Below are positions 26,601-58,236 of a stretch of 64,000 nt of DNA, in pieces (within the stretch, counting starts at the first letter, position 1; each line of letters begins with the position of its first letter). The position numbers and the translations under genes were made by a program. Below the pieces are notes generated by a model, which searched no databases, was not told the DNA's origin, and saw nothing but the letters and a program-made list of their open reading frames with translations. This DNA is from Lingula anatina (Eukaryota > Animalia > Brachiopoda), in the NCBI GenBank assembly GCA_051362555.1, contig CM120645.1:1-64000 (forward strand). The letters run 5' to 3'.

Positions 26601-29600
26601 ATCACCCACCCCCACTGATAGTAGATCTTAATACAATGTCATCACCCACCCCCACTGATAGTAGATCTTAGAACAATGTCACCACTCACCCCACTGATAG
26701 TAGATCTTAGAACAATGTCATCACCCACCCCCATTGGTAGTAGATCTTAGAACAATGTCATCACCCACCCCCAATGGTAGTAGATCTTAAAACAATGTCA
26801 TCACCCACCCCCACTGACAGTAGATCTTAGAACAATGTCATCACCCACCCCCATTGGTAGTAGATCTTAGAACAATGTCATCACCCACCCCCACTGATAG
26901 TAGATCTTAGAACAATGACATCACCCACCCCACTGATAGTAGATCTTAGAACAATGTAACCATCGACCCCCATTGATAGTTGATCTTAGACCAATGTCAC
27001 CACCCACCCCCACTGACAGTAGATCTTAGAACAATGTCATCACCCACCCCACTGATAGTAGATCTTAGAACAATGTAACCACCGACCCCCATTCATAGTA
27101 GATCTTAGAACAATGTCACCACCCACCCCCACTGACAGTAGATCTTAGAACAATGTCACCACCCACCCCACTGATAGTAGATCTTAGAACAGTGTCACCA
27201 CCCACCCCCATTGGTAGTAGATCTTAGAACAATGTCACCGCCCACCCCACTGATAGTAGATCTTAGAACAGTGTCACCACACCACCCCCATTGGTAGTAG
27301 ATCTTAGAACAATGTCACCACCCACCCCCATTGATAGCAGACCTTAGAACAGTGTCACCACCCACCCCCACTGACAGCAGACCTTAGAACAATGCCACCA
27401 CCCACCCTCACTGACAGCAGACCTTAGAACAATGTCAACACCCACCCTCATTGGTAGTAGATCTTAGAACAATGTCACCACCCACCCCCATTGGTAGTAG
27501 ATCTTAGAACAATGTCACCACCCACCCCCATTGATAGTAGATCTTAGAACAATGTCACCACCCACCCCCATTGATAGTAGATCTTAGAACAATGTCACCA
27601 CCCACCCCACTGATAGTAGATCTTAGAACAACGTCACCACCCACCCCCATTGATAGTAGATCTTAGAACAATGTCACCACCCACCCCCATTGATAGTAGA
27701 TCTTAGAACAATGTCACCACCCACCCCCACTGATAGTAGATCTTAAGACAATGTCACCACCGACCCCCATTGATAGTAGATCTTAGAAGAATGTCACCAC
27801 CCACCCCCATTGATAGTAGATCTTAGAACAATGTCACCACTGACTCACTGATAGTAGATCTTAGAACAATGTTACCACCCACCCCCATTGGTAGTAGATC
27901 TTAGAACAATGTCACCACCCACCCCCACTGACAGTAGATCTTAGAACAATGTCACCACCCACCCCACTGATAGTAGATCTTAGAACAGTGTCACCACCCA
28001 CCCCCATTGGTAGTAGATCTTAGAACAATGTCACCACCCACCCCACTGATAGTAGATCTTAGAACAGTGTCACCATACCACCCCCATTGGTAGTAGATCT
28101 TAGAACAATGCCACCACCCACCCCCACTGATAGTTGACCTTAGAACAGTGTCACCACCCACCCCCACTGACAGCAGACCTTAGAACAATGCCACCACCCA
28201 CCCTCACTGACAGCAGACCTTAGAACAATGTCAACACCCACCCCCATTGGTAGTAGACCTTAGAACAATGTCACCACCCACCGTCACTGACAGCAGACCT
28301 TAGAACCTTAGAATGGGGGTGGGTGGTGACACTGTTCTAAGATCTACTATCAGTGGGGTGGGTGGTGACATTGTTCTAAGATCTACTGTCAGTGGGGGTG
28401 GGTGGTGACATTGTTCTAAGATCTACTATGAATGGGGGTCGGTGGTTACATTGTTCTAAGATCTACTATCAGTGGGGTGGGTGATGACATTGATAGAACA
28501 GTGTCACCACCCACCCCCATTGGTAGTAGATCTTAGAACAATGTCACCACCCACCCCCATTGTTAGTAGATCTTAGAACAATGTCACCACCCACCCCCAT
28601 TGATAGTAGATCTTAGAACAATGTCACCACCCACCCCCATTGATAGTAGATCTTAGAACAATGTCACCACTGACTCACTGATAGTAGATCTTAGAACAAT
28701 GTTACCACCCACCCCCATTGGTAGTAGATCTTAGAACAATGTCACCACCCACCCCCACTGATAGTAGATCTTAGAACAATGTCACCACCCACCCCCATTG
28801 ATAGTAGATCTTAGAACAATGTCACCACCCACCCCCATTGGTAGTAGATCTTAGAACAATGTCAACACCCACCTCCATTGGTAGTAGATCTTAGAACAAT
28901 GTCACCACCCACCCCCATTGGTAGTAGATCTTAGAACAATGTCAACACCCACCTCCATTGGTAGTAGATCTTAGAACAATGTCACCACCCACCCCCACTG
29001 ATAGTAGATCTTATAACAGTGTCACCACCCACCCTCACTGACAGCAGACCTTAGAACAGTGTCACCACCCACCCCCATTGGTAGTAGGTCTTAGAACAAT
29101 GTCACCACCCACCCCCATTGGTAGCAGATCTTTGAACAGTGTCACCACCCACCCTCACTGACAGCAGACCTTAGAACAGTGTCACCACCCACCCCCATTG
29201 GTAGTAGATCTTAGAACAATGTCACCACCCACCCCCATTGGTAGTAGAACTAAGAAGAATGTCACCACACACCCACTGATAGTAGATCTTAGAAGTGTCA
29301 CCACCCACCCCCACTGATAGCAGATCTTAGAACAATGTCACCACCCACCCCACTGATAGTAGATCTTAGAACAATGTCACCACCCACCCCACTGATAGTA
29401 GATCTTAGAACAATGTCACCACCCACCCCCATTGGTAGTAGAACTAAGAAGAATGTCATCACCCACCCCCACTAACAGTAGATCTTAGAACAATGTCACC
29501 ACCCACCCCCACTGATAGTAGATCTTAGAACAGCGTCACCACCCACCCCCACTGATAGTAGATCTTAGAACAATGTCACCACCCACCCCCACTGATAGTA

Positions 29601-30937
29601 GATCTTAGAACAGTGTCACCCCCCACACCCACTGATAGTAGATCTTAGAACAATGTCACCACCCACCCCCACTGATAGTAGATCTTAGAACAATGTCACC
29701 ACACACCCCACTGATAGTAGATCTTAGAACAGTGTCACCACCGACCCACTGATAGTAGATCTTAGAACAGTGTCACCACACACCCCACTGATAGTAGATC
29801 TTAGAACAATGTCACCCCCCACCCCACTGATAGTAGATCTTAGAACAGTGTCACCACCGACCCACTGATAGTAGATCTTAGAACAGTGTCACCACCCACC
29901 CCACTGATAGTAGATCTTAGAAAAATGTCACCACCGACCCACTGTCAGTAGATCTTAGAACTTCGTCACCTCCACTGACAGTAGAAGTAGTTTTAAGGCA
30001 GAAGACATTGCTTTACCTCATCACATAATTTAATCTAGAAAAAAAACTGACATTTAAAACTGACAGTGTGGTTGGGTAGATGGAGACTGCGAAGGTGCCA
30101 GGTATGTTTAACATTGTCTGTGTTCCAAATGCCCAGTATTTCCCCCTTAATACCAGTTGTGTTCCAAATGCCCAGTATTTCCCCCTTAATACCAGTTGTG
30201 TTCCAAATGCCCAGTATTTACCCCTTAACACCAGTTGTGTTCCAAATGCCCAGTATTTCCCCCTTAACACCAGTTGTGTTCCAAATGCCCAGTATTTCCC
30301 CCTTAATACCAGTTGTGTTCCAAATGCCCAGTATTTCCCCCTTAATACCAGTTGTGTTCCAAATGCCCAGTATTTCCCCCTTAACACCAGTTGTGTTCCA
30401 AATGCCCAGTATTTCCCCCTTAACACCAGTTGTGTTCCAAATGCAAAGTATTTCCCCCTTAACACCAGTTGTGTTCCAAATGCCCAGTATTTTACCCTTA
30501 ACACCAGTTGTGTTCCAAATGCCCGGTATTTTACCCTTAACACCAGTTGTGTTCCAAATACCCAGTATTTAGGGTGCAGTATTTGCCCTTTAAGTACAGT
30601 GAATGTGGAAGATCTGAACACCATTGCTTGGAGACAGACTGACTCAGAGCCTGCATCATGTGCCTGATCACTTAGTCATTTGATCCACAATCAACCATTA
30701 TTATAAACGTGTCGTAGTTATAAAATACTTTTGTAATTGTGGCGAAAAATGTAGTTATCGGCCTCAGTTGACAAATCATATGATATAAAGTGGAATGACA
30801 GCGAGCCTACTTACTGCTATAACATTTACAAACGTCGTTTTTCCTGAGTATTGAAGCCCGACCAATGTTAGCTCCATCTCCTCTTTCCAGAAGAGACTCT
30901 TTATCCAGTCTAATATCCTCGAGAAAAACGCTATCAT
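12058..30937 (-). CDS. ARL8: ADP-ribosylation factor-like GTPase 8 (ARL8A/B homologue), 185 aa, 6 coding exons
   Basis: Exons 30937-30815, 22276-22196, 14582-14509, 12971-12810, 12578-12508 and 12104-12058 sum to 558 nt with GT-AG junctions in consistent phase. Protein [35 protein letters not shown]...[16 protein letters not shown]...GNKRD...[15 protein letters not shown]. Confidence 0.97.
12508..12578 (-). CDS. ARL8: ARL8 coding exon 5
   Basis: [23 protein letters not shown]; tttcag acceptor, gtaagt donor. Confidence 0.95.
12810..12971 (-). CDS. ARL8: ARL8 coding exon 4
   Basis: [53 protein letters not shown]; ttccag acceptor, gtaagt donor. Confidence 0.95.
12964..13680 (-). repeat. 65-bp tandem repeat x11 containing the ARL8 exon-4 acceptor and the first 9 exon nt
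   Basis: Each unit on - reads ...gtctgttgatatttccag|GTATATGGT. Confidence 0.97.
13838..13922. repeat. (GT)n(GA)n compound microsatellite
   Basis: Read directly from the sequence. Confidence 0.95.
14213..14465. repeat. 55-bp minisatellite, ~4.5 copies
   Basis: Unit aattcctattgttaagttatatgtagtctatgaatagcatcatataaacat(c/a)tc(c/t). Confidence 0.9.
14509..14582 (-). CDS. ARL8: ARL8 coding exon 3
   Basis: [25 protein letters not shown]; tttcag acceptor, gtgagt donor. Confidence 0.95.
14621..14660. repeat. (GA)n microsatellite
   Basis: Read directly from the sequence. Confidence 0.95.
14838..16871. repeat. 36-bp minisatellite, ~55 copies; the last unit resumes at 21019-21057 after the transposon
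   Basis: Unit cagggtcacagtgtcacttccctgtattatataaca. Confidence 0.97.
16872..21018. mobile_element. Non-autonomous long-TIR DNA transposon, IS3EU-like, carrying a nested element
   Basis: Inverted repeats of >200 bp begin TATGGGCGGCCAAAAGGGC at both ends; 6-bp target duplication GTCAAT at 16866-16871 and 21019-21024. TAY...RTA ends with a 6-bp TSD fit IS3EU; the family call is from recalled repeat-class properties. Confidence 0.85.
17473..20755. mobile_element. Nested ~3.3-kb non-autonomous Tc1/mariner(pogo)-type element
   Basis: ~25-bp TIRs CGGTAA(t/a)GTGCCATGAATTTCGAAC flanked by TA. Removing it restores the host subterminal motif gatcgacgagaaTAgttacacgat. No transposase recognised. Confidence 0.8.
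21256..22205 (-). repeat. Degenerate ~27-29-bp tandem repeat derived from the ARL8 exon-2 donor junction
   Basis: Units on - read (tg)acattacaat(a/g)aaagtaa(g/a)tgacac, versus the true junction TTACAATAAAG|gtaagtgaca. Interrupted by a MITE. Confidence 0.85.
21792..22015. mobile_element. Foldback MITE, family A (copy 2), inserted in the donor-derived array
   Basis: Reverse-complement similarity to 9170-9362. Confidence 0.8.
22196..22276 (-). CDS. ARL8: ARL8 coding exon 2
   Basis: [27 protein letters not shown]; tttcag acceptor, gtaagt donor. Confidence 0.95.
24725..24947 (-). pseudogene. Decayed THAP zinc-finger domain, probably transposon-derived
   Basis: MAGFTC...[24 protein letters not shown] and, after a frameshift, [14 protein letters not shown]. 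The pattern C...FP...W...CxxHF is typical of THAP; the second Cys is lost and stops are present. Confidence 0.65.
25043..25521. repeat. 68-bp minisatellite, ~7 copies
   Basis: Unit gatgagataatcc(c/t)accaattgctgttttgtatccttgtgagactaaactacagaccagcctagtgtt. Confidence 0.95.
25555..29985. repeat. 39/40-bp minisatellite, ~110 copies, with an internal 181-bp inverted block
   Basis: Unit agtagatcttagaacaatgtcaccacccacccccactgat; orientation is reversed at 28312-28492. Confidence 0.97.
30119..30570. repeat. 39-bp minisatellite, ~11.5 copies
   Basis: Unit tgtgttccaaatgcccagtatttcccccttaacaccagt. Confidence 0.95.
30815..30937 (-). CDS. ARL8: ARL8 coding exon 1
   Basis: [41 protein letters not shown] (P-loop); gtaagt donor. 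Confidence 0.96.
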
Positions 30938-31073: not shown

Positions 31074-31269
31074 ATGGTGGCACTCTACCGACGTCAACAG
31101 CAAGCAGCGCATTTTGTGATTATTTGTGTCCTTTTGTTACATGGTGGAAGTATCGTGAGCGCTGACACCCCCGCTAATTGTACATACGAAGATGTAGTTG
31201 GGCAGTGGACGTTTTACACCACCGCAATGGGCTACGATAACACTTTAAATTGCTCAGCGATGCCGCAAA
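31074..31269 (+). CDS. CTSC: CTSC exon 1
   Basis: Hydrophobic signal peptide followed by [17 protein letters not shown]; gtaagt donor. Confidence 0.93.
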
Positions 31270-34200
31270 GTAAGTGTTTTGCTTGCCTCGGTGTTTTTGG
31301 CCGTATAAGTAGATCAGGTGACCAGTCCATCCAGGATATTACCTGGACAAAAGTCTCAGGTTGAGACCGCAATGTCGGTCAGTTGCTGGTCAGTTTGTTG
31401 TGTAAGTTTTAGATTCAGAGTTCTTCTAGTTCGACTGGATGACTAAAAATTGGAAATGTACAAGACAGTTACTGCATGGTAAATCGGAAAAGACATCGGT
31501 ATCTTTGAGATGAAATATTTTATAAGCTAGTGAGATTTATCAATTCGTACAGCCTTGGAGAGATTGTCTTGTACTGCAAGTTCTGCAACGACCTACACTA
31601 CACTATATATGTGGTAGACATCAATGAATATATGAAACTGTTAAGGTAAAGTGGGCGTAAGTTTTGTTTGATTATTTCCAAAAAAAAAAAAAAAAATTAT
31701 ATTTAAACAGATATCTCTGCTCACTTTATGTGCTTTATATACTGTGAAGGGTCAGTACAAACCCCTTACCCACCCACCCACCCCAAACACTGAGTGTGTC
31801 ATTTGATTATTTTTGAATATATATTCCAGGCATGTTCAAAGGTAATTATGGTTTGAAGTTATACTTCCCCAGCAAAGCTGTGGACCAACATGGCAACCAG
31901 GGGTTTTGGACACTTATCTATAATCAGGTATGATCATTATTTGTATTGACAATAGGAAGGTTCAGCATATGAGGAAAAGAATTAGAAATAAGTTCGGTCT
32001 TTTTACACCTTTCAAAAGTGAAACAAGTTTTCATATGTGTTCTTTTTATGTACAGACACAGATGTGTCTGTACATATAGCCGTCACCTGCGTCTGTCGTC
32101 GCCGTTGCCGTTGGCGTGCACTTTTACCGTAAACACGATAAGTGGAAAACGGTTTTACGTTTTGACTTGAAACTTACAGAACTGATGAATATTCATAGTA
32201 TTCAGGTCAAGTTCGAAAATCAGCATGATCGGGCCATTTTTAGGGAAGTTATGCTGTTTTTTCACTTTTTTCAGCATATATGCAACACCGTAAACACGAT
32301 AAGTGGAAAACCGTTTTACCTTTTGGTTTGAAACTTACAGAACTGATGAATTTGTATAATACGCAGGTCAAGTTCGAAAATCAGCATGATCGGGTCATTT
32401 TTATGGAAGTTTTGCTTTTTTTTCACTTTTTTCAGCATATATGCAACACCGTAAACACGATAAGTGGAAAACCGTTTTACCTTTTGGTTTGAAACTTACA
32501 GAACTGATGAATATTTATAATACGCAGGCCAAGTTCGAAAATCAGCATGATTGGGTCATTTTTAGGGAAGTTATGCTTTTTTTTCACATTTTCTCTGATT
32601 CAATTCTTAGGCATGTTAATAGTCTCATTATTGAACTAATAAGATATGTAAAAGTGTTTTTTTGACATTTCCTGCATCTTTACAACATTGTTAGTTGATT
32701 ATGTAAAAATGATGGTAAACTTGTTATCGTGTATTGTGTAATGAAGTGTCAAAAATGGAAATAAACACATATCATTGCAGTTTGTCAGATTCAATCATCC
32801 ACTACGTTCAGAATCTCAGAATGGAGGAAATTGGACATTTAATACTGTTCTATTAATATTTTTCCCATCTCATCAATTTTCTTAGTTGGTCATATAAAAA
32901 TGGCAGTAAACTGTTAATTTTGTTTTATGTTAAAAAGTGTTAAAAATGGAAATAAACCCATTTCAGAAAAGTGCTGTCTTGTTTACATTTTGGCATTTTC
33001 AAGATGTGACTTTGAAGTTCCATGGGCCTGAAGACCTTTGCTAGTCACATTTTCTGAATATCCATGATACTAATATTTTATTATTAAAAATTGATGGTCA
33101 TTATGCTGTTAAACATTATGTAATATTGCATCAAAATTTGAAGAAACCCCTATTTTGGGCACTGCTCCCATGATGACCATTTAAGGAAAATCATGTCACT
33201 TACTGTTCTCAAACTTACAGGAAAGAAACATGGGACTAAAATACAGCTTCAGTAGGCAATGCAGTCTGTTTGGTAATTTTTTCTGGCAGTTAAACAGTTT
33301 TTTGTGAAAATTTAATTTTTTCACATATTGGCATTTTCAAGGTGTGACTTTGAAGTTCTATGATCCTGAAGACCTTTGCTTGTCACATTTTCTGAATGTC
33401 CATGTTACTAATATTCTATTATTAAAAATTGATGGTCATTATGCTGTTAAACATTATGTAATGTTACATTAAAATTTGAAGAAACCCCTATTTTGGGCAC
33501 TGCTCCCATGATGAGCACTTAAGGAAAATCATGTCACTTACTGTTCTCAAACTTACAGGAAAGAAACATGGGACTAAAATACAGCTTCAGTAGGAAATGT
33601 AGTCTGTTTGGTAAATTTTTCTGGCAGTTAAACTGTTTTTTGTGAAAATTTCATTTTTCACGTATTGGCATTTTCAAGGTGTGACTTAGAACCTCCACGG
33701 GCTTGAAGACCCATGCTAGTCACATTTTCTGAAAATCCATGATACGTATATATTATTATTAAAAATTGATGGTCATTATGCTGTTTAGCATTATGTAATG
33801 TTGCATCAAAATAGAAGAAAACACAATTTTTGGTGCTGCTGCCATGATGACCATTATGGGAAAACCGTGTTACTTATGACTGTCAAACTTTCAAAAAAGA
33901 AACACAGGACTAAAATGCAGCCTGAGTTGGAAAAGCAGTCTAATTGGCTTCTTTTTCTGGAAGTTATACATTTTAGTGAAAAATTCAATATTATCGTGTT
34001 GGCATATTCATTGTGGGACTCGGAGCTCCCATGGACATGAAGCCAAATAGTAATCAAATTTTCTAAATGCCCATGCTATTTATAGTCAATAATCAAAAAT
34101 TGGTGATAATTATTATATAGTTTATTATGTAATGTTACATCAAAATTGACAAAAATCTTTTTGCACTGCTACTGCAAACATTATGAAAAGAAAACTGTGT

Positions 34201-34756
34201 TACTTATTATTATTTTTAACTTACAAGTATGATTTTTAGGATTGGCATGCAGTTCAAATTAGAAAGCCAGCTCAATTGGGTTATCTTTTATCATTGAATT
34301 CATGCAATTTTGTGTGAAATTTTCATTTTTCTCATTCTGGCACTTTCAAAGTATAAACTTGAACTCTGATGGGCCTGAATCCTTACGCTTTTACTTTCGT
34401 TGGTGTTACCTGTTGTGCATAATTAAAATTTGATGTTGACTGTGCAGTTAAACATAATGTATTATTGCATCAGAATTGGTAGTCTCCTATTTTGTGCATT
34501 TTTGTTATGTGCTTTTCTTAAGATGTGACTTATGGGCCTGAAAGATCTTTGAGAGGGTCAGTCTGTAAATTTCCCTTGGGTATCACTTAGCTAAGTTCAG
34601 AGTTATAAAGTCATTAATAGGCCATTAAATGAGATTACATAAAGCACACTTGTTGATATTTCCCTGTAAACTCCCAAAGGTTAAGCTCTCTGCTAGATTA
34701 ATAGTAAGTAAGCAGTGATAATTATGCAGGTAAATTTTGTTTAATATTGCAAATAA

Positions 34757-34837
<81 letters not shown>

Positions 34838-37800
34838 AAAAAGATTAAAAGTTTGAATGGCAGCATCATTGGAATTATATTTACCTCTGCCAAGGAGGTT
34901 ATGTTTTCACCCTTGTTTGTCTGTCATCAACATAACTCAAAAAGTTACGGACCGATTTTGATGAAATTTTCAGGAACTGTCAGAAGTGGGCAAGGAGGAC
35001 AATGATTAGTTTTTGGTGGTGGTCCGGATCAATAATCAATCAATAATAATCAACAATTGCTGTCTTGGCAGAGGTCTGCGCTTTTGGAGTGCTTTTCTAG
35101 TTTTGTTATGTTTTCCTTTTTAATTTTTTCTCAAACACTGGCATTTGTGACTTTTAACTCTCATCTGCCTGAGGCTCTGCACATTTTCTATATTTCCACA
35201 TAAGCAGTTGTATTGTTTTTTATGTCTTTAAACATTATGTAATATTATTTTATGCACTGTCATCATTTTTTCAAATATTGAGACTTTCATCATGAGAATT
35301 TGAACTCTCATGGTCCTGAAACTGTAATCTTACTGAAGGGGTGGATTGAGACCATCTTCTGGGTCTTCCGGAAGACGGTCAGGTTATTAAGTTTATATTG
35401 ACTGGTATCCATTATTTTTTCTTTTGGAAGACCATCAAAATAGAGAATGGATCAACATAGATACTTTGGAATACTGTCAGAAAATATCTCAGGGTCCGCT
35501 CCTGTTATTGACCATGTTACCTGTTGTGCATGATTAAAATTCAGTGTTGACTGACAGTGCTATTATAAGCATCATTTATTATTGCATCAAAATTGACAAA
35601 ATTACCTTTTTTGCATCTTTATTTTCTGTTTTTTGTCTGTACATTTGACAGCTTTGCTGCCTTGTTTGATAGTGAATTCAGTACCATACTTGATACATTT
35701 CACAAAGATTTCTCAAAATCTTTGTGAGTTGTAATCATAAACTATAAATATGAAACAATGTTCTTGCAATGTACTTGGTCTTTAGCTAAACATCCACAAT
35801 AAAGTGATGTCATACATAGCTCTCAGTACTTGGTACCTAGACCTTATTCCCATATCTAGATTGATCTGTCAGGATCGACCCATCTCCAAGGGGTTTCTAA
35901 CTTAATTGCTTTCAGTTTAAGCGGCTTAGATGTCTGGCATACCTACTAAGCTGCTCAACGATAGCTAACTACCCCCAAACAGCTTCAGTAGGCATGCCAG
36001 ACATCAGAGCTGGTTACACAAAAAGCAATTTAGCAAGAAACCCCTTGGAGATGATTTTATCCTGCTTGATCGATCTAGGTACATGTATTAGTATGGGTAC
36101 GGGGTCTTTATCTTTAGCTTAACCTCCACAATAAAGGAGGCAGGAAAATGCTATGATTAATATGAGATATTGATTTAATATGAAACTACAGTCACTGTGG
36201 TTAATAAAAATAACTGAGTACACAGCTCAATGTCTGGTGATGTTTTAATATTAAACTACAGTCAGTGTGGTTAATAAAAATAACTGAGTACACAGCTCAA
36301 TGTCTGGTGATGTTTTATAATTGCTTTAATATTAAAGGGATAATAACTCTTCATTTTGGCCAAAAAATGAATTTTCCTGGAGTAAACAACACTTTTTCCA
36401 TACTTACCAATGGTTAATGAATCCATTTTTACATTCAAAGTTAGTCCCTGTTTTTTTTTCTAAAAAGTTAAGCTTTTTGTTAAAATCTCTTAAGAGATTT
36501 TAACAGAGTATAGCCATCAATAGAGGTCACGTGGTCTAAAGACAAGCTCAGATATCAGAAAAAATAGCTATAACTGCTGTTTTGTGATAAAACTGAATAT
36601 ATTATATTTTTATGAGTTATTCACAATGTTTTTATTGTGAAATATAGATCTCATACAAAGAGTTATTATCACTTTAAACTACAGTCAGTGTGGTTAATAA
36701 AAATAACTGAGTACACAGCTCAATGTCTGGTGATGTTTTATAATCAATTTGTTGAATTTCCAGGGATTTGAAGTTGTTATCCAAGGAAGAAAATTCTTTG
36801 CCTTCTCAAGATATGAAGGGAAAGAGCCTAATACGACAAGTGTATGTTCAGAGACAATGAGGGGGATGTCGCATAATGTGGTGGGCCGAAGCTGGGCTTG
36901 TTTCTATGGGATGAAACAAAAGAAAACAAATCCAAAGAAACTGAACACTTCAGCACCTAAGTCAAAGTAAAAATCTATAAGAATAAAACCTTTTATAATG
37001 AATGTTTCTAATGATCAGAGATTGTTGTAATGCTAAAAAACAGTTATTAACTAAAGCACATTGCTTAACAATTGTTATAAATGTCATTAAACATTAGAAT
37101 GAAGTGCAGGGACTGGTCAAGCAATGGTTTGTGAGTAAGAGAAAATTTCTTCTTTTTTGTGGAAAATTTGATTTGGCAGGAAACCCTGATAGAATAACTT
37201 TAAATTAAAAATTTGACATCAAAACTGATTTATGTGCTTCACGTTATTAATAGTTTTTCTTTTAAATAAATGTTTTATAAGTTATATGTTTATATATGAA
37301 AAATTAACTGAGACTTAAATTTTATGAGAAATAACTCCATTATCCCTTCAGGGTACTGACATCTAAGATGCTATATAACTCCATTATCCCTTCAGGTTAT
37401 TGACATCTGAGATGCTATATAACTCCAGTATCCCTCCAGGTTATTGACATCTAAGATGCTATATAACTCCATTATCCCTTCAGGTTATTGACATCTAAGA
37501 TGCTATATAACTCCATTATCCCTCCAGGTTATTGACATCTGAGATGCTATATAACTCCATTATCCCTCCAGGTTATTGACATCTAAGATGCTATATATAA
37601 CTCCATTATCCCTTTAGGTTATTGACATCTAAGATGCTATATAACTCCATTATCCCTTTAGGTTATTGACATCTAAGATGCTATATAACTCTATTATCCC
37701 TTTAGGTTATTGACATCTAAGATGCTATATAACTCCATTATCCCTCCAGGTTATTGACATCTAAGATGCTATATAACTCTATTATCACTCCAGGTTATTG

Positions 37801-40800
37801 ATATCTAAGATGCTATATAACTCCATTATCACTCCAGGTTACTGACATCTAAGATGCTATATAACTCCATTATCCCTCCAGGTTATTGACATCTAAGATG
37901 CTACATAACTCCATTATCCCTCCAGGTTATTGACATCTAAGATGCTATATAACTCCATTATCCCTCCAGGTTATTGACATCTAAGATGCTATATAACTCC
38001 ATTATCCCTCCAGGTTACTGACATCTAAGATGCTATATAACTCCATTATCCCTCCAGGTTATTGACATCTAAGATGCTATATAACTCCATTATCCCTCCA
38101 GGTTACTGACATCTAAGATGCTATATAACTCCATTATCCCTTTAGGTTATTGATATCTAAGATGCTATATAACTCCATTATCCCTCCAGGTTACTGACAT
38201 CTAAGATGCTATATAACTCCATTATCCCTCCAGGTTATTGATATCTAAGATGCTATATAACTCCATTATCCCTCCAGGTTATTGATATCTAAGATGCTAT
38301 ATAACTCCATTATCCCTTTAGGTTATTGATATCTAAGATGCTATATAACTCCATTATCCCTCCAGGTTACTGACATCTAAGATGCTATATAACTCCATTA
38401 TCCCTTTAGGTTATTGATATCTAAGATGCTATATAACTCCATTATCACTCCAGGTTACTGACATCTAAGATGCTATATAACTCCATTATCCCTCCAGGTT
38501 ATTGACATCTAAGATGCTATATAACTCCATTATCACTCCAGGTTATTGATATCTAAGATGCTATATAACTCCATTATCCCTCCAGGTTACTGACATCTAA
38601 GATGCTATATAACTCTATTATCCCTCCAGGTTACTGACATCTAAGATGCTATATAACTCCATTATCCCTCCAGGTTATTGACATCTAAGATGCTATATAA
38701 CTCCATTATCCCTCCAGGTTATTGACATCTAAGATGCTATATAACTCCATTATCCCTCCAGGTTATTGACATCTAAGATGCTATATAACTCCATTATCCC
38801 TCCAGGTTATTGATATCTAAGATGCTATATAACTCCATTATCCCTCCAGGTTATTGATATCTAAGATGCTATATAACTCCATTATCCCTCCAGGTTATTG
38901 ATATCTAAGATGCTATATAACTCCATTATCCCTTTAGGTTATTGATATCTAAGATGCTATATAACTCCATTATCCCTTTAGGTTATTGATATCTAAGATG
39001 CTATATAACTCCATTATCCCTTTAGGTTATTGATATCTAAGATGCTATATAACTCCATTATCCCTCCAGGTTATTGATATCTAAGATGCTATATAACTCC
39101 ATTATCCCTCCAGGTTATTGACATCTAAGATGCTATATAACTCCATTATCCCTCCAGGTTACTGACATCTAAGATGCTATATAACTCCATTATCCCTTCA
39201 GGTTATTGATATCTAAGATGCTATATAACTCCATTATCCCTCCAGGTTACTGACATCTAAGATGCTATATAACTCCATTATCCCTTCAGGTTATTGACAT
39301 CTAAGATGCTATATAACTCTATTATCCCTTTAGGTTATTGACATCTAAGATGCTATATAACTCCATTATCCCTCCAGGTTATTGACATCTAAGATGCTAT
39401 ATAACTCTATTATCACTCCAGGTTATTGATATCTAAGATGCTATATAACTCCATTATCACTCCAGGTTACTGACATCTAAGATGCTATATAACTCCATTA
39501 TCCCTCCAGGTTATTGATATCTAAGATGCTATATAACTCCATTATCCCTCCAGGTTACTGACATCTAAGATGCTATATAACTCCATTATCCCTCCAGGTT
39601 ACTGACATCTAAGATGCTATATAACTCCATTATCCCTTTAGGTTATTGACATCTAAGATGCTATATAACTCTATTATCCCTTTAGGTTATTGACATCTAA
39701 GATGCTATATAACTCCATTATCCCTCCAGGTTATTGACATCTAAGATGCTATATAACTCTATTATCACTCCAGGTTATTGATATCTAAGATGCTATATAA
39801 CTCCATTATCACTCCAGGTTACTGACATCTAAGATGCTATATAACTCCATTATCCCTCCAGGTTATTGACATCTAAGATGCTATATAACTCCATTATCCC
39901 TCCAGGTTATTGACATCTAAGATGCTATATAACTCCATTATCCCTCCAGGTTATTGACATCTAAGATGCTATATAACTCCATTATCCCTCCAGGTTACTG
40001 ACATCTAAGATGCTATATAACTCCATTATCCCTCCAGGTTATTGACATCTAAGATGCTATATAACTCCATTATCCCTCCAGGTTACTGACATCTAAGATG
40101 CTATATAACTCCATTATCCCTTTAGGTTATTGATATCTAAGATGCTATATAACTCCATTATCCCTCCAGGTTACTGACATCTAAGATGCTATATAACTCC
40201 ATTATCCCTCCAGGTTATTGATATCTAAGATGCTATATAACTCCATTATCCCTCCAGGTTATTGATATCTAAGATGCTATATAACTCCATTATCCCTTTA
40301 GGTTATTGATATCTAAGATGCTATATAACTCCATTATCCCTCCAGGTTACTGACATCTAAGATGCTATATAACTCCATTATCCCTTTAGGTTATTGATAT
40401 CTAAGATGCTATATAACTCCATTATCACTCCAGGTTACTGACATCTAAGATGCTATATAACTCCATTATCCCTCCAGGTTATTGACATCTAAGATGCTAT
40501 ATAACTCCATTATCCCTCCAGGTTATTGACATCTAAGATGCTATATAACTCCATTATCCCTCCAGGTTATTGACATCTAAGATGCTATATAACTCCATTA
40601 TCCCTCCAGGTTATTGATATCTAAGATGCTATATAACTCCATTATCCCTCCAGGTTATTGATATCTAAGATGCTATATAACTCCATTATCCCTCCAGGTT
40701 ATTGATATCTAAGATGCTATATAACTCCATTATCCCTTTAGGTTATTGATATCTAAGATGCTATATAACTCCATTATCCCTTTAGGTTATTGATATCTAA

Positions 40801-43800
40801 GATGCTATATAACTCCATTATCCCTTTAGGTTATTGATATCTAAGATGCTATATAACTCCATTATCCCTCCAGGTTATTGATATCTAAGATGCTATATAA
40901 CTCCATTATCCCTCCAGGTTATTGACATCTAAGATGCTATATAACTCCATTATCCCTCCAGGTTACTGACATCTAAGATGCTATATAACTCCATTATCCC
41001 TTCAGGTTATTGATATCTAAGATGCTATATAACTCCATTATCCCTCCAGGTTACTGACATCTAAGATGCTATATAACTCCATTATCCCTTCAGGTTATTG
41101 ACATCTAAGATGCTATATAACTCTATTATCCCTCCAGGTTACTGACATCTAAGATGCTATATAACTCCATTATCCCTCCAGGTTATTGATATCTAAGATG
41201 CTATATAACTCTATTATCCCTCCAGGTTACTGACATCTAAGATGCTATATAACTCTATTATCCCTCCAGGTTACTGACATCTAAGATGCTATATAACTCC
41301 ATTATCCCTTTAGGTTATTGACATCTAAGATGCTATATAACTCCATTATCCCTCCAGGTTACTGACATCTAAGATGCTATATAACTCCATTATCCCTCCA
41401 GGTTATTGATATCTAAGATGCTATAAAACTCCATTATCCCTCCAGGTTACTGACATCTAAGATGCTATATAACTCCATTATCCCTCCAGGTTACTGACAT
41501 CTAAGATGCTATATAACTCCATTATCACTCCAGGTTACTGACATCTAAGATGCTATATAAGCGTGACCCTGAATTCATCAATAGAATCAACTCTGTGCAA
41601 ACATCTTGGAAGGCAGGACTCTATAAGGAGTATGAAGGTGTCACCATAGAGGACATGATCCGGAGAGCAGGGGGAAGGAAATCTAAAATCCATGGGTAAT
41701 TGTCTCAGCATGGGGGCAACAGTTGACCCAAAATTGTTTTGTACTTTTTAATTATTTATGTTAACTTAGTAATGATCATAATAATACTTAACAGTAACTA
41801 CTCACATACATACATATACTTACATAGAACTCACCACAGAGGACGTTAGTGACACCTAGTGAATTAGTGACACCTAGTGAATTCTAGTACAGATAAAGAA
41901 ATGTGCACAGTGTTAGAGGACATTAGTGACACCTAGTGAATTAGTGACACCTAGTGAATTCTAGTACAGATAAAGAAATGTGCACAGTGTTAGAGGACAT
42001 TAGTGACACCTAGTGAATTAGTGACACCTAGTGAATTCTAGGACAGATAAAGAAATGTGCACAGTGTTAGAGGACATTAAGTGACACCTAGTGAATTAGT
42101 GACACCTAGTGAATTCTAGTACAGATAAAGAAATGTGCACAGTGTTAGAGGACATTATAGTGACACCTAGTGAATTAGTGACACCTAGTGAATTCTAGTA
42201 CAGATAAAGAAATGTGTACAGTGTTAGAGGACATTATAGTGACACCTAGTGAATTAGTCTAGTACAGAAAGTAGTCAATGTTCCCAAAGGACAGATGGCT
42301 CCCATTTTTTTCATTTCTGTAATATTACTTGAAATATTAAAATAGATTTATCCTTTTCTCATCTGATAACAATATTTGATGCACAGATATCTCTTTTCCT
42401 TCCTCATCCAGTTTTTGATTTGTTTCCACAAGTTTCCAGGACATCACAATTGAGTAAATGCTAAATTGCTTTCATTTTTGTTTCACATAAGTCATATTCT
42501 GGATTGTCAGAAATTTTATATTTGAACAATAATTGCTTTGTGTTGTAGAATGCTATGAATACATCTTATGTTGGACCACTTAAGATTTGACTCTTTTTAT
42601 TGGTCAGGAGCTAAGTGCTTATAGCTGCAATGTCATGTTATTGCTTGATTTAAGGACTCTTCTATTTCATTTCATTTCTTTAAGTTTTATATATAATTTT
42701 AGATAATAATTTAATAAATTTCCCTATGGCCTCTTTTGTTTTTCCGTATAACCATAAATGATTTTTTTATATAACTGAGTTTCTGGCCCCATATTTTAAT
42801 CAGTCACCTTAGCTATTATATCTGCATGATATGCATATAATTTGATATAAACATACCTAGGGATGATACATGCATGTGACTGTAGCAATATGTTTTTTTT
42901 TCTCGTGTGTGTGTTTGTGTGTGTGAAATGGGAGTAATTTCTCTTGGTATGTATGTCAAATAATACACTGCCACCCTCTTGCAGTACATGCCTAGAACAC
43001 CACTTGAAGTGTTTAGAAAAGAAAAAAATATGTCATTCTGGTAATGGTGCATGATCTCACACTTAACATGTGCCCTGCCTGAACAAACAGTATCTCATGA
43101 CTTGCTTCACCTTGATTCTGGTTGAAAGTAATCATGGTATGAAGGTTATTTAATTCTCTGAAATTAATTCTAAGAAAAATCTTTGTTAAAATTAAGCAGT
43201 GCAATACATTCATTATTTCTTCAGGAGACCCAAGCCAGCCCCTGTTACCATGGAGATGGAAAAGTTGGCCAATGAGCTGCCTTTGGAATTTGACTGGCGA
43301 AACCTTCAAGGAGTGAATTATGTTTCCCCAGTTAGGAATCAGGGTATGTCTTTATGGAATAACAAAATTGTTGGACCCATTCCACACTGTTGAATAACAA
43401 AATTGTAGAGCCCATTCCACACTACTGTATAACAATATTGCAGTGTCCATTTCACAACAATGAAGTACAAAAATATAGTAGTAGAGCCCATTCCATAGAA
43501 TGGAATGACAACATGTGTAGGGTCCATTACACTGTACTGTAAGACTAGATACAATAAACTGGATGAAAAATGCAGTCTCCATGAAAGCCTTGTGTATGTT
43601 TTGCTGAAGAAAATAGCTGATTCATTTTTTAAACTTTATTTTAGGGTCTTGTGGAAGCTGCTATGCATTTTCTTCCATGGCAATGCATGAAGCCAGAATT
43701 CGTATAATGACCAACAACTCGGACCAGGTCATCCTTTCCCCTCAAGATGTGGTAGAGTGCAGTTCTTACGCACAAGGTACATTTCTGTTTTTCAATACTT

Positions 43801-46113
43801 TAAGACAGACCACCTCCATTAGACCTTATTACTTACCCCCATTAAAAAAAAAAACCTGGAAACAATTTTCCTATGATCACCAAGGGATACCCTATCTGAA
43901 ACTGGTGAACTTTGCTTTTTTAGACCTAAAACAAACTGCATTCCTTTTAAAAACATTTATGTTATATGCATGCAAACACATAATGGTGAAAGTTTTTAAA
44001 ACATATTCATTAGAGACTAATATTTTGATCTTAATGAGCTCTATACTTTATTCTGATATCAGGTAAGTTTTGACATGCCATTATGTACTGTTTGTTTTAA
44101 AATGTCTTATAGGCTTTATTTGTTGCCTAGTTTGAATGGATATTTGTGTAAAGAATCAAAAAATACCCTGAAACACAAATATTATCAAACTTTTGCTTAA
44201 AACCTACCCAAAACAAAAGATTAATCATGTTGAAGTATTCATTCATAATACAGTTTATATTCACCCAAAAACAAAATGTTATACCTTGATATGAGCACGG
44301 GATCATCCAGAGGATTTTGGTGTGTTTTAGCCTTTAATTTCTACAGTATATCAGTTAAGCTAATGAATAGGCCAGACAGAATGATATCCTTATTACATGT
44401 TATTATATATTGTATTTAAATCATAAGATTCCAAAAATATAAAAGAAGTATTTTGATTGAGTGCTTGTTACAGATTTCATAACAAAATTCAATTTTTGTA
44501 AGGAATTCAAATTGTCTCCCATGTGTTTTGTTGCCTCTCTTTTGAGGAAATAGAACTGTCAGTCAAAACATGGAAGTTAAAGTTTAAAATGTAATGTAGG
44601 CCAATTTTGCCCAGTCAGAAGGGTTTTTCTCATGCATTAACTTCCTACCATTTGAAATGCATTTTGCAATAACATTTTTTGGGGGAGATTCCCTTGGAGC
44701 AACATTTATCACAAAAAATACAAAAAATACAACAAAAAATACACAAAATAAATGTTGTTTTAAGCGAAGTCCGATGGATTTTCCTTATAATGCATACAGT
44801 CAATGAAACATATCCAGTGAATTTTCTCAAACACCACCAGAAAGCAAATCAAATCAAATCAACCAAATGGTAAACACTGAAAGGCATTGTCAATTTCACC
44901 ATTAATTTTTAATGCACTTTTCATGCACGTGCAGACATTTGACACTTGATTTTCTTTAATTCAAATAAGAGCTAATATCATGATTTAAAGACTGTAGTTT
45001 ATATCACTTTTGACATTTTTTTTCCATTATGCCCAATTCAACTTTTAATTAAATTCATAGTACTGTATTTTTTCCTTTTATTTAAGGATGCATATGAAGT
45101 TAACGTGGCATATTAAAACCACAGGTAATGATTATATATTAAACAACACACTATAATTTGAAACAAGCCTTCCCTTATGCCTTCCTGTATTCATGACAAA
45201 TAAAATAAAATGTCCAAATGAAACTAATGTGTTTCCCACCCCCAGGCTGTGAGGGTGGCTTCCCCTACCTGATAGCAGGCAAGTATGCAGAGGACTTTGG
45301 ACTGACTCCAGAAACTTGCAATCCTTACAAAGGGTTTGACCATGATTGCTCCACCAACAGAAGCCAATCTTGTGTCAGGAGATATGGCACACATTATCAG
45401 TATGTGGGAGGGTTTTATGGAGGGTAAGTTACTTTTTATTAATCCATAATTAAACCAAATGGAGCTATTCAAATTACTGTCTGTTTTGTTTGCGGAGATA
45501 CAGCACACATTATAAATATGTAAAAAGTCTTTATTTTGTTAATCCATGATTAAACAAGCAGCTGCATCACTTGTATGTAGAGATGGTGAAGCAATTACAG
45601 ATTTAGTGCTGTACCTACAAGTGCTTCCTGCAAGGGTATAGATACAGGCCCCATTCTTCTTCACTAATTTTGGTGTTCTTTTATTGATCACATATGTAAC
45701 AGACTAAAAGAAACTGTAAGCATGTGCACAATGTAAACTTATGGGGTACCTGTCTAAAATTGCATACCTGCTATTCCTTATTTCACAGGTGTAATGAAGC
45801 ATTGATGAAGATAGAGCTTGTCAAAAATGGCCCTATGTCTGTATCCTTTGAAGTCTACTCCGACTTCCAGCACTATCAAAGTGGTGTGTACCACCACACA
45901 GGACTCCAGAGCAGTTTTAACCCCTTTGAACTGACCAACCACGCTGTGCTGCTGGTGGGCTACGGCTATGACAAAGACTCTGGAGAAAAGTTCTGGTCCG
46001 TCAAGAACAGCTGGGGAACCAAGTGGGGGGAGGAGGGCTTCTTCCGCATACGCAGAGGCACGGATGAGTGCGCCATTGAGAGCATAGCAGTTGCAACATC
46101 ACCCATCTTTTGA
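31074..46113 (+). CDS. CTSC: Cathepsin C (dipeptidyl peptidase I), 470 aa, 8 exons
   Basis: Exons 31074-31269, 31830-31927, 36764-36966, 41534-41695, 43225-43343, 43645-43776, 45246-45423 and 45789-46113 sum to 1413 nt in consistent phase. Signal peptide, DTPANCTY exclusion-domain start, QGSCGSCY catalytic Cys, NHAV His and KNSWG Asn. Confidence 0.97.
31830..31927 (+). CDS. CTSC: CTSC exon 2
   Basis: [32 protein letters not shown]; ttccag acceptor, gtatga donor. Confidence 0.9.
34764..34835. repeat. (TA)n microsatellite
   Basis: Read directly from the sequence. Confidence 0.95.
34881..35102 (+). mobile_element. Short Helentron/HINE-like element nested in the larger one
   Basis: Starts tacctctgccaaggagg; near its end carries the inverted cttggcagagg followed by a short hairpin and tctagtt. 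Confidence 0.6.
35845..36082. mobile_element. Foldback (hairpin) MITE, distantly similar to family A
   Basis: Long inverted arms: catctccaaggggtttct / agaaaccccttggagatg and atgtctggcat.cctact / agtaggcatgccagacat. Confidence 0.7.
36183..36742. repeat. ~70-bp tandem repeat x3 just upstream of the CTSC exon-3 acceptor, split by a MITE
   Basis: Unit aaactacagtcagtgtggttaataaaaataactgagtacacagctcaatgtctggtgatgtttta near 36183, 36253 and 36676. Confidence 0.85.
36336..36673. mobile_element. TTAA-specific MITE (Kolobok-like)
   Basis: TTAA|AGGGATAATAACTCT...AGAGTTATTATCACT|TTAA. Excision restores taatattaaactacag of the host repeat. Confidence 0.8.
36764..36966 (+). CDS. CTSC: CTSC exon 3
   Basis: [17 protein letters not shown]...WACFYG; ttccag acceptor, gtaaaa donor. 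Confidence 0.9.
37331..41560 (+). repeat. 44-bp tandem repeat x~96: CTSC exon-4 acceptor (17 nt) plus the first 27 nt of the exon
   Basis: Unit ctccattatccctccag|GTTA(C/T)TGA(C/T)ATCTAAGATGCTATATAA; the last unit runs into the rest of exon 4. Confidence 0.98.
41534..41695 (+). CDS. CTSC: CTSC exon 4 (starts in the last unit of the 44-bp array)
   Basis: [47 protein letters not shown] (propeptide); phase 2 at both ends fits the neighbouring exons. Confidence 0.9.
41839..42268. repeat. ~77-bp minisatellite, ~5.5 copies
   Basis: Unit gaggacattagtgacacctagtgaattagtgacacctagtgaattctagtacagataaagaaatgtgcacagtgtta. Confidence 0.93.
43225..43343 (+). CDS. CTSC: CTSC exon 5
   Basis: RPKPAP...[22 protein letters not shown]. 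Confidence 0.95.
43645..43776 (+). CDS. CTSC: CTSC exon 6
   Basis: [43 protein letters not shown]. Confidence 0.95.
45246..45423 (+). CDS. CTSC: CTSC exon 7
   Basis: [18 protein letters not shown]...YVGGFYG. Confidence 0.95.
45789..46113 (+). CDS. CTSC: CTSC exon 8
   Basis: [23 protein letters not shown]...[10 protein letters not shown]...KNSWG...[15 protein letters not shown]. Confidence 0.96.
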
Positions 46114-46291: not shown

Positions 46292-47008
46292 GTGTTAGGT
46301 GAGATCTATTAGCATCCATCCTTGTGAGGTTACAGTTATGATTGTGTTAGGTGAGATCTATTTGCATCCATCCTTGTGAGGTAACTGTTATGATTGTGTT
46401 AGGTGAGATCTAGTAGCATCCATCCTTGTGAGGTTACTGTTATGGTTGTGTTAGGTGAGATCGATTAGCATCCATCCTTGTGAGGTTACTGTTATGATTG
46501 TGTGAGGTGAGATCGATTAGTAGCCATCCTTGTGAGGTTACTGTTATGATTGTGTGAGGTGAGATCGATTAGTAGCCATCCTTGTGAGGTTACTGTTATG
46601 ATTGTGTGAGGTGAGATCGATTAGTAGCCATCCTTGTGAGGTTACTGTTATGATTGTGTGAGATGAGATCAATTAGTAGCCATCCTTGTGAGGTTACTGT
46701 TATGATTGTGTTAGGTGAGATCGATTAGCATCCATCCTTGTGAGGTTTCTGTTATGATTGTGTTAGGTGAGATCGATTAGCAGCCATCCTTGTGAGGTTT
46801 CTGTTATGATTGTGTGAGGTGAGATCGATTAGTAGCCATCCTTGTGAGGTTTCTGTTATGATTGTGTGAGGTGAGATCGATTAGTAGCCATCCTTGTGAG
46901 GTTACTGTTATGATTGTGTGAGGTGAGATTGATTAGTAGCCAGCCTTGTGAGGTTACTGTTATGATGGTGTGAGGTGAGATTGATTAGTATTCATCTTTG
47001 TGAGGTTA
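46292..47008. repeat. 52-bp minisatellite, ~14 copies (probably in the CTSC 3' UTR)
   Basis: Unit gtg(t/g)aggtgagatcgattagtagccatccttgtgaggttactgttatgatt with variants. Confidence 0.95.
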
Positions 47009-55000: not shown

Positions 55001-55218
55001 AAGTCCAAGCTTATGCAGGCATAATACTTCAAAACAAAATCTGGTTTGGTTTATACATTGTTATCAAGACTCACCAATATCTGGTTTGGTTTATACATTG
55101 TTATCAAGACTCACCAATATCTGGTTTGGTTTATACATTGTTATCAAGACTCACCAATATCTGGTTTGGTCTCCTTTCCTCTCCCTGCATCAACATCCAA
55201 GTCATCATACAGGGACAT
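48981..55218 (-). CDS. RBM17: Splicing factor 45 (SPF45/RBM17; G-patch plus UHM), 417 aa, 12 coding exons
   Basis: Exons 55218-55155, 54553-54480, 53271-53173, 52845-52625, 52137-51983, 51774-51700, 51040-50992, 50860-50709, 50525-50449, 49752-49654, 49446-49374 and 49096-48981 sum to 1254 nt in consistent phase. Motifs MSLYDDL, LAPVIDLK, DEYDPRRPNDYE, GAAIAPP, G-patch KIMARMGYKEGSGLGKSEQG and UHM NMVGPGEVD...LNGRYFGGR. Confidence 0.96.
49374..49446 (-). CDS. RBM17: RBM17 coding exon 11
   Basis: MPGASEDEAVRIFVEFERMESAIK. Confidence 0.93.
49654..49752 (-). CDS. RBM17: RBM17 coding exon 10
   Basis: NMVGPGEVDEELEPETADECGKYGKVIKCVIFE. Confidence 0.93.
49773..50000. repeat. ~27-bp minisatellite, ~8 copies
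   Basis: Unit taccatgacacttctccatg(a/t)aca(g/a)(t/c). Confidence 0.9.
50020..50355. repeat. ~67-bp minisatellite x5
   Basis: Unit actttgacagagactgtcacaagtacaaatgtttattactg(a/g)cctgtgttactcttcactaccataa. Confidence 0.93.
50449..50525 (-). CDS. RBM17: RBM17 coding exon 9
   Basis: TARAEIPGVTTTDLLKNPSKVICLR. Confidence 0.9.
50709..50860 (-). CDS. RBM17: RBM17 coding exon 8 (G-patch)
   Basis: GSVASKIMARMGYKEGSGLGKSEQGMSMALQVEKTSKRGGKIIHEKD. Confidence 0.93.
50992..51040 (-). CDS. RBM17: RBM17 coding exon 7
   Basis: SGTPPRPTPGFSFGL; phases fit both neighbours. Confidence 0.8.
51700..51774 (-). CDS. RBM17: RBM17 coding exon 6
   Basis: MGAAIAPPQALIEEDVAPPLQEEQ. Confidence 0.9.
51983..52137 (-). 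CDS. RBM17: RBM17 coding exon 5
   Basis: RRRERHKELGYDVEEEEERRRRRRDDDMEGGG...RPKRT; acceptor is aag. Confidence 0.85.
52397..52478. mobile_element. 82-bp Tc1/mariner-type MITE
   Basis: TA|CAGGGTGGTCC...GGACCACCCTG|TA. Confidence 0.75.
52625..52845 (-). CDS. RBM17: RBM17 coding exon 4
   Basis: ...VQDEYDPRRPNDYEDYVKKRKQQKQRE... Confidence 0.92.
53173..53271 (-). CDS. RBM17: RBM17 coding exon 3 (starts in the last unit of the 105-bp array)
   Basis: KRQAGPSLAPVIDLKPKRSATSEELHFNMQTGK. Confidence 0.9.
53240..54380 (-). repeat. 105-bp tandem repeat x11: RBM17 exon-3 acceptor region plus the first 32 exon nt
   Basis: Units start every 105 bp from 53240 to 54290; on - each reads ...tatacactccag|AAAAGGCAAGCAGGGCCCTCACTAGCTCCTGT. 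Confidence 0.97.
54480..54553 (-). CDS. RBM17: RBM17 coding exon 2
   Basis: GWSSGFKLLHSQLQAKKANLLQTK. Confidence 0.92.
55039..55170 (-). repeat. 40-bp tandem repeat x3 spanning the donor of RBM17 coding exon 1
   Basis: On -: ACCAAACCAGATATTG|gtgagtcttgataacaatgtataa repeated three times. Confidence 0.93.
55155..55218 (-). CDS. RBM17: RBM17 coding exon 1
   Basis: MSLYDDLDVDAGRGKETKPDI; gtgagt donor. An acceptor at 55228-55230 implies an upstream non-coding exon. Confidence 0.92.
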
Positions 55219-58112: not shown

Positions 58113-58236
58113 CTATACCTCTGCAGTACATTCACGGGCAAAGTGACCATAACCTTCACACTTGCGGCACTGGACATCCCTCTTGGCATCTGAGGCACCG
58201 GGACAGTCCCTGGAATAGTGACCGGCCTCTCCACAC
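58113..58236 (-). CDS. CNBP: CNBP-like coding exon 4
   Basis: [40 protein letters not shown]. Confidence 0.85.

What the first reader, a model, noticed from the sequence alone, without database searches (positions are those of the whole stretch)
37331..41560. About 96 tandem copies of the CTSC exon-4 3' splice site; only the last gives cathepsin C
Seen: 4.2 kb of the 4.6-kb intron 3 consists of 44-bp units of 17 intronic and 27 exonic nt, joined at an ataa microhomology. Splicing to an earlier copy reads [15 protein letters not shown](Y)* because the next unit supplies TGA. The final unit's variant (cactccag GTTACTGACA) also occurs upstream, so it has no unique local sequence, and its branch point must lie in the exon-derived part of the previous unit. 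Nearly every junction is YAG|GT, a possible dual acceptor/donor. The downstream catalytic exons are intact, implying the gene works. This is the extreme case of the proposed system.
Basis: partly seen in the sequence, partly recalled or inferred. Interest (0 to 1): 0.85.

Follow-up and report, generated by a model that had tools for sequence, protein, structure and literature searches.

The report
Brachiopod cathepsin C splice-acceptor "mirage" repeat
A 44-base piece covering the end of an intron and the start of the next exon of a lamp-shell (Lingula) cathepsin C gene is repeated 96 times, yet the spliced RNA reads seen, from other animals, join only the last copy, so it is likely a harmless, large example of the "mirage" repeats already known from lancelets.

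Summary
The array is real: 96 copies of the CTSC exon-4 acceptor, each 17 intronic plus 27 exonic nt, filling 92% of intron 3. All 95 upstream copies lead to a premature stop. The exons match Lingula anatina proteins. In raw RNA reads, exon 3 joins the last copy: 40, 14 and 24 reads in three runs, with no depth on upstream units. A fourth, shallow run has 2 sense reads across the units and about 1 junction read. No run is the assembled haplotype and poly(A) RNA hides decay, so the bound is 7-14% decoy at steady state. The last acceptor is no stronger than the decoys, so downstream exon context likely selects it. This is a "mirage" minisatellite, described in amphioxus (PMC3087553, PMC3902484), with human donor analogues (PMC1557585). 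The scan noted the same thing on other DNA: 47 notes in at least 6 genomes, one with about 286 copies. I found no brachiopod report. The public annotation is split at this gene, one model ending in a decoy unit. No regulatory role is shown.

The parts
37331..41560 (+). 44-bp minisatellite, 96 copies of the intron-3/exon-4 boundary (17 intronic + 27 exonic nt); 22 unit types; internal 41-45-unit higher-order duplication
37350..37353 (+). First acceptor copy (AG|GG), preceded by unique intron; decoy, gives a premature stop
41532..41535 (+). Last (96th) acceptor, the one used in spliced reads
   Evidence: 40 reads in X1 at 41534; 14 in X7 and 24 in X9 (divergent allele, clipped at 41540)
31074..31269 (+). 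CTSC exon 1 (coding part)
   Evidence: tblastn of P0121
31830..31927 (+). CTSC exon 2
36764..36966 (+). CTSC exon 3 (exclusion domain); donor after 36966 confirmed by read loose ends
36967..41533 (+). CTSC intron 3, 4567 nt, 92% array
41534..41695 (+). CTSC exon 4 (propeptide), 162 nt; body 41561-41695 is purine-rich (61%, 7.4 GAR triplets per 100 nt)
43225..43343 (+). CTSC exon 5; joined to exon 4 in all four runs
43645..43776 (+). CTSC exon 6 (catalytic Cys motif)
45246..45423 (+). CTSC exon 7
45789..46113 (+). CTSC exon 8, coding part (catalytic His and Asn motifs, stop)

Best explanation
This is a 'mirage' minisatellite: a 44-bp stretch across the CTSC intron-3/exon-4 boundary stands in 96 tandem copies, spliced reads join exon 3 to the last copy, and the other copies are likely removed silently with the intron because only the last one is followed by the exon body and its donor. 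Shown: the array, the dead-end reading of all 95 upstream copies, and use of the last copy in RNA from other individuals. Inferred origin: one duplication at a 4-nt microhomology, then growth by unequal or intra-strand exchange in a repeat-rich subtelomere. Inferred choice of site: exon definition. Each decoy carries only 27 nt of exon with no GAR triplets and meets only a weak donor-like site 44 nt on; the last copy is nearest to the purine-rich exon body and the real donor. Inferred consequence: close to neutral, with any rare slip removed by nonsense-mediated decay.
For: Exon 3 joins the last acceptor in 40 (X1), 14 (X7) and 24 (X9) reads, with zero depth on 41428-41525 in those runs; exon 4 joins exon 5 in 28, 6, 9 and 14 reads. 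The last acceptor has 12 pyrimidines in -20..-4 against 13 in 84 of 96 copies, and is predicted less open (0.56 unpaired against an interior mean of 0.87), so its own strength does not explain the choice. The array has 0 GAR triplets in 4182 nt against 7.4 per 100 nt in the exon body. A block of units is duplicated at lags 41 and 45 (22 of 50 unit matches at lag 45; 0 of 2000 permutations reach this; 706-nt exact repeat), and private variants sit in the first units, as expected of minisatellite turnover. 29 arrays cover 35.5% of the non-telomeric window and four other splice sites are also multiplied. Amphioxus mirages are reported not to disturb splicing (PMC3087553 and PMC3902484, passages). 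An earlier public assembly also holds a decoy unit: RefSeq model P0121 ends in the decoy peptide.
Against: No run is the assembled haplotype: 41582 T>C is fixed in all four and 41606 T>C in 83 of 84 reads, so the 96-copy allele itself was not observed. X1, X7 and X9 have no array reads at all, although 7-14 would be expected in X1 at a 0.5-1% intron background with a 4.2-kb array; these animals may carry a shorter array or none. X4 shows 2 sense reads across the units against about 1 junction read (inferred from bin depth); these could be decoy-spliced. Zero of 40 reads only bounds decoy mRNA at 7.2% (13.9% if pairs count once), or 28-62% of splicing events if decay were 5-10-fold. Acceptors -1 and -2 would give exons of 206 and 250 nt, so size alone does not exclude them. 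The enhancer role of GAR triplets is recalled from other animals and untested here. Exon-4 skipping was not tested.
Confidence: 0.65

Rival explanations
1. Decoys near the 3' end are used often, and the products, which all carry a premature stop well upstream of four later junctions, are destroyed by nonsense-mediated decay; the array then lowers CTSC output.
For: All 95 decoys give a stop. Decoy acceptors look as strong as the real one. The read bound allows 28-62% of events under 5-10-fold decay. Human 6-16 and CBS donor arrays use their two nearest pseudo-sites (PMC1557585, introduction passage). X4 has 2 array reads.
Against: 0 of 40 junction reads in X1 and no depth on upstream units in three runs. 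Decay rarely removes every molecule (own knowledge). RT-PCR on amphioxus mirages showed regular splicing.
Confidence: 0.15
2. The clean splicing comes from haplotypes with few or no copies; the 96-copy allele is a rare expansion that may splice badly.
For: All runs differ from the assembly in exon 4. One X1 allele and the X7/X9 allele differ inside the 27-nt head from all 96 units. Three runs have no array reads.
Against: Decoy units also occur in an earlier public assembly (P0121) and in sense reads of X4 spanning at least 98 nt of units. The ORF on the assembled haplotype is intact, and 22 unit types with nested duplication take many generations to build.
Confidence: 0.12
3. The array is removed stepwise by recursive splicing, using each AG|GT as acceptor and then as donor, or as a second intron in the manner of intron gain by tandem duplication.
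For: 95 of 96 junctions are YAG|GT and match 6-7 of 9 consensus donor letters in the pre-mRNA. A duplicated AGGT made a spliceable intron in human cells, 6-16% spliced (PMC3265369, section 6). Mature reads cannot tell one step from several.
Against: After exon 3 joins, the regenerated donor matches only 5 of 9 and has T at +3, unlike all 7 CTSC donors. The correct junction regenerates the same site, so efficient re-use would delete exon 4. The first copy is AG|GG.
Confidence: 0.05
4. The copy number is inflated by the assembly, for example two haplotypes joined in tandem.
For: About half the array repeats at lags of 41-45 units. No DNA reads or genome could be checked.
Against: The two blocks differ by single variants and by a 4-unit insertion, and the flanks are single-copy. 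Even half the length leaves about 50 decoys.
Confidence: 0.03

Closest known systems
Amphioxus 'mirage' minisatellites: Adh3, globins BflGb6/BflGb9, troponin C, PGBD5 (PMC3087553 and PMC3902484, passages read; the Adh3 and troponin C papers known only through these)
   Same: Tandem copies of an intron 3' end plus exon 5' part, as in BflGb6; copies keep AG/GT signals; unit length within the 10-72 bp given for Adh3; regular splicing retained; homogenised interior with divergent edge units.
   Different: Brachiopod, not cephalochordate. 96 copies against 3-6 (globin) and 2-7 (PGBD5) in the passages read; Adh3 copy numbers not seen. All 96 keep the AG. Splicing checked here by raw read counts, not RT-PCR.
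Human splice-donor VNTRs: F7 IVS7 (37 bp x 5-9), 6-16 (25 pseudo-sites), CBS IVS13, LMNB2, PDGF (PMC1557585, abstract and passages read)
   Same: A minisatellite whose end unit spans the exon-intron boundary; identical pseudo-sites stay mostly silent; the copy next to the exon body wins.
   Different: Those repeat the donor, where the first copy wins and 5'-to-3' scanning explains it. Here the acceptor is repeated and the last of 96 wins, which 5'-to-3' scanning from the upstream donor would not give.
Intron gain by tandem genomic duplication of AGGT (Rogers model; PMC3443670 passages, PMC3265369 abstract and section 6)
   Same: Tandem duplication multiplies an AG|GT junction.
   Different: The duplicated piece spans an existing boundary and no new intron or retained unit appears in the reads; the array only lengthens intron 3.

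Membership tests
mirage minisatellite | Tandem repeats whose unit spans an exon-intron boundary | tested here: met
   boundary confirmed by reads
mirage minisatellite | Copies retain AG/GT splice signals that could act as cryptic sites | tested here: met
   96 of 96 AG, 95 of 96 AG|GT
mirage minisatellite | Regular mRNA splicing is not disturbed | tested here: met
   78 junction reads at the last copy and no upstream depth in three runs; other haplotypes, steady-state RNA only; fourth run too shallow
mirage minisatellite | Length differs between haplotypes or cells | not testable with these tools
   no genome held, only RNA runs listed; internal block duplication points to unequal exchange
mirage minisatellite | Concerted evolution inside the cluster, edge units set apart | tested here: met
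   six of the first seven unit types are singletons; interior built from a few shared types
recursive splice (ratchet) sites | YAG directly followed by GT inside an intron | tested here: met
   95 of 96
recursive splice (ratchet) sites | Strong donor regenerated after the first step (criterion recalled) | tested here: not met
   5 of 9 consensus letters, T at +3 against A in 7 of 7 CTSC donors
recursive splice (ratchet) sites | Saw-tooth nascent coverage or lariats starting at the site | not testable with these tools
   no nascent-RNA or lariat data listed
intron gain by tandem genomic duplication | A new intron between first-copy donor and last-copy acceptor, with exon sequence kept on both sides | tested here: not met
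   exon 3 joins the last copy directly, no unit retained
regulated unproductive splicing (AS-NMD) | Stop-bearing isoform made at a measurable level that rises when decay is blocked | tested here: inconclusive
   0 of 40 reads at steady state in X1, bound 7-14%; no decay-blocked data

The most novel reading that the evidence does not exclude
The array is a length-tunable dial on cathepsin C: decoy acceptors, or stepwise AG|GT re-splicing, divert a copy-number-dependent share of transcripts into decay, so that repeat expansion at splice sites in this subtelomere sets gene dose between individuals.
Probability: 0.08. Interest if true: 0.7.

Novelty: new member of a known kind. Interest (0 to 1): 0.27.

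Why it matters
It is a clean natural test of 3' splice-site choice. 95 near-identical acceptors are transcribed first and are passed over, which argues against first-come or simple 5'-to-3' scanning and for selection by the downstream exon; the published experimental work I read concerns repeated donors. It extends mirages to a brachiopod. It also has a practical cost: the public annotation of this gene is split into a 182-aa model ending in a decoy unit and a headless 254-aa model. It is not a new kind of element and no function is shown.

Tried and rejected
No whole genome is held, so the unit could not be sought elsewhere in the genome. The run search listed no RNA holder; nine raw-read RNA runs came by species label, of which 4 of 9 were laid. 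No reads were obtained on the exon-3 side, so exon-4 skipping (in frame, 162 nt) and the 5' end of the array are untested. The alternative exon-3 donor after 36960 was considered and rejected: listed loose ends all end at 36966. A folding explanation (decoys hidden, last acceptor open) was rejected: the last acceptor is predicted less open. A stronger last acceptor was rejected. In-frame use of every third unit was rejected: all 95 decoys stop. P0121 as proof of decoy mRNA was rejected: it is a RefSeq XP_ model and can arise from reads placed on a broken assembly (inference). The exon-type C at +5 is commoner in the last 11 units (7 of 11 against 22 of 85, p=0.016), but the window was chosen after looking and edge effects explain it; not used. 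No test of whether arrays are enriched at splice sites was done. The Adh3 paper (PMC117041) is not held. Paper searches: searches gave nothing on point by listing; two searches listed no Lingula report of such repeats (listings and abstract starts only). Scan notes near this place, by sequence, and for 'brachiopod Lingula' were empty. Supplements of the amphioxus papers were not read and may hold larger copy numbers.
Full report
Observation. The array is as described. Tandem Repeats Finder gives 37331-41560, period 44, 96.1 copies, 95% matches. There are 96 junctions, spaced 44 nt apart except once 46; all end in AG and 95 of 96 go on with GT. The unit is 17 nt of intron and 27 nt of exon, bounded by a 4-nt ATAA microhomology (read directly). 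It fills 92% of the 4567-nt intron 3. An eight-exon model from 31074 to 46113 gives an intact 471-aa cathepsin C, supported by Pfam and by the human DPP1 pro-region for exon 4. Joined to exon 3, all 95 upstream copies stop within 8-18 codons and only copy 96 is open.

Setting. The window begins with 6.3 kb of telomere repeat. 29 arrays of period 10 or more, merged from the TRF rows, cover 35.5% of the rest. Exon 8 is 100% identical to a protein named Lingula anatina DPP1-like (P0001), the next of the 120 listed hits being 81% or less, so the animal is a Lingula brachiopod. Four other splice sites in the window are multiplied too: an Arf-family (ARL8-like) acceptor x11 and donor (17 diverged copies at up to 4 mismatches in 21 nt), and a G-patch (SPF45-like) acceptor x10 and donor x3. 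Three other CTSC sites checked are single (the names ARL8 and SPF45 are recalled from the translations). Without a null model I cannot say that arrays favour splice sites.

History of the array. The 95 full units fall into 22 types. Six of the first seven types are singletons, and a block recurs at lags of 41 and 45 units (22 of 50 matches at lag 45, reached by 0 of 2000 permutations; longest exact repeat 706 nt). The two blocks differ by single variants and a 4-unit insertion. This fits growth by unequal exchange (inference) better than an assembly error, though no DNA reads or genome were available.

RNA. Nine raw-read runs were listed by species label and 4 of the 9 were laid on 41428-41830, which holds the last three acceptors and exon 4 (6-30% of each run was read). 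In X1, 40 reads join the end of exon 3 to 41534. In X7 and X9, 14 and 24 reads do the same on a divergent allele, clipped at 41540. Exon 4 joins exon 5 in 28, 6, 9 and 14 reads. Depth on 41428-41525 is zero in X1, X7 and X9; because the units are nearly identical, a read spliced to any decoy should have landed there (inference). So the gene is active and the last copy is used. Against a simple story: X4 (13 reads laid) has depth 2 across the upstream units, in the sense direction, and by bin arithmetic only one read that starts at 41534. Those 2 reads fit a 0.5-1% pre-mRNA background on a 4.2-kb array but could be decoy-spliced. No run is the assembled haplotype (41582 T>C fixed in all four), one X1 allele and the X7/X9 allele differ within the repeated 27 nt, and X1 lacks the 7-14 stray array reads expected at that background. 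These animals may carry fewer copies. Zero of 40 bounds decoy mRNA at 7.2%, or 13.9% if pairs count once, which would be 28-62% of splicing events under 5-10-fold decay. Exon-4 skipping was not tested.

A second assembly. A search with exon 3 found 1 hit among 5 candidates: P0121, XP_013384215.1, 182 aa. It is exons 1-3 followed by the peptide that 37 of the 95 decoys give. P0001 is the headless rest, starting at a short reading frame inside intron 4 (43030) and differing from the window at one residue of exon 5. An earlier public assembly therefore holds at least one decoy unit, and its annotation is split in two. These are predicted models and I do not count P0121 as evidence of decoy mRNA.

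Mechanism. The last acceptor has no intrinsic edge. It has 12 pyrimidines in -20..-4 where 84 of 96 copies have 13, it is predicted less open (0.56 against 0.87), and five upstream copies equal it over -35..+27. Branch candidates at -37 (YTRAY, exon-derived) and -18 recur unit after unit (consensus patterns recalled). What differs lies downstream: a 135-nt exon body with 61% purines and 7.4 GAR triplets per 100 nt, against none in 4182 nt of array, and a real donor 162 nt away. A decoy meets only a donor-like GTTAYT 44 nt on, with T at +3 where all 7 CTSC donors have A (two read-confirmed, five from my model). I infer exon definition with nearest-site preference. Size alone does not exclude copies -1 and -2 (206 and 250 nt), so that last step is open and decay may tidy up slips. 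Recursive splicing is unlikely: the donor regenerated after exon 3 joins matches 5 of 9 consensus letters, and the correct junction would regenerate the same site.

Known kinds. I recalled the amphioxus 'mirage' and found it in print. PMC3087553 (passages) describes tandem duplications of intron 3' end plus exon 5' part in BflGb6 (6 and 3 units), units of 10-72 bp at Adh3, retained AG/GT signals, regular splicing by RT-PCR, length instability and concerted evolution. PMC3902484 (passages) adds troponin C and PGBD5. PMC1557585 (abstract and passages) treats human donor arrays: F7, LMNB2 and PDGF use only the authentic site, 6-16 and CBS also the two nearest pseudo-sites. PMC3443670 (passages) and PMC3265369 (abstract and section 6) cover intron gain by duplicated AGGT, which does not apply since no new intron results. 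Four of five mirage features were met here and length variation could not be tested. Searches for a Lingula or brachiopod report listed none (listings only; subscription papers are not covered, the Adh3 paper was not held, and supplements were not read). The scan's own notes hold 47 similar findings in at least 6 genomes, among them worms, sea urchin, octopus and an elephant-shark case of about 286 copies (unchecked AI notes), so 96 is probably not the extreme.

Verdict. Real, correctly described, and a new member of a known kind. Its value is as a natural test bed for acceptor choice and as a warning for gene annotation. Interest 0.27. The most novel reading not excluded, a copy-number dial on gene output, has probability about 0.08.

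Noticed in passing
window 12963-13680 (-): 65-bp array holding 11 identical copies of an acceptor (AG|GT, 9 exonic nt) of an Arf-family, ARL8-like gene; use of copy -1 gives an immediate stop.
   Followed up: partly
window 21253-22206 (-): 29-bp array grown from a donor of the same ARL8-like gene (real donor at 22195; 17 copies at up to 4 mismatches, mostly AA|GT), split by an insertion at about 21790-22017.
   Followed up: partly
window 53240-54380 (-): 105-bp array holding 10 copies of an acceptor plus about 32 exonic nt of a G-patch, SPF45/RBM17-like gene. A splicing-factor gene with decoy acceptors, if the recalled name is right.
   Followed up: partly
window 55035-55170 (-): 40-bp array holding 3 identical copies of the first coding exon's donor in the same G-patch gene.
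   Followed up: partly
window 14838-16869 and 16870-21050: 36-bp array x57 that resembles the 29-bp donor unit; next to it a 4.1-kb stretch with long inverted ends (about 16875 and 21020) and 21-bp subterminal repeats, like a DNA transposon inserted into the array (read).
   Followed up: no
window 1-6296: (CCTAAC)n telomere, about 1060 copies; the genes lie within 60 kb of a chromosome end.
   Followed up: no
proteins P0121 and P0001; window 43030: The public CTSC annotation is split: a 182-aa model ending in a decoy unit and a 254-aa model that starts at a short frame inside intron 4.
   Followed up: yes
window 41534-41695: Runs X7 and X9 differ from the assembly at 6-9 listed sites in 162 nt plus the exon head, far more than X1 and X4: a divergent population or a cryptic species under the same label.
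   Followed up: no
window 58116-60556 (-): CCHC zinc-knuckle (CNBP-like, name recalled) gene in several exons.
   Followed up: no
window 25555-29961, 41838-42258, 46292-47008: Further arrays: 40 bp x111 upstream of CTSC, 77 bp x5.4 in intron 4, and 52 bp x14 just after the CTSC stop, probably in the 3' UTR.
   Followed up: no
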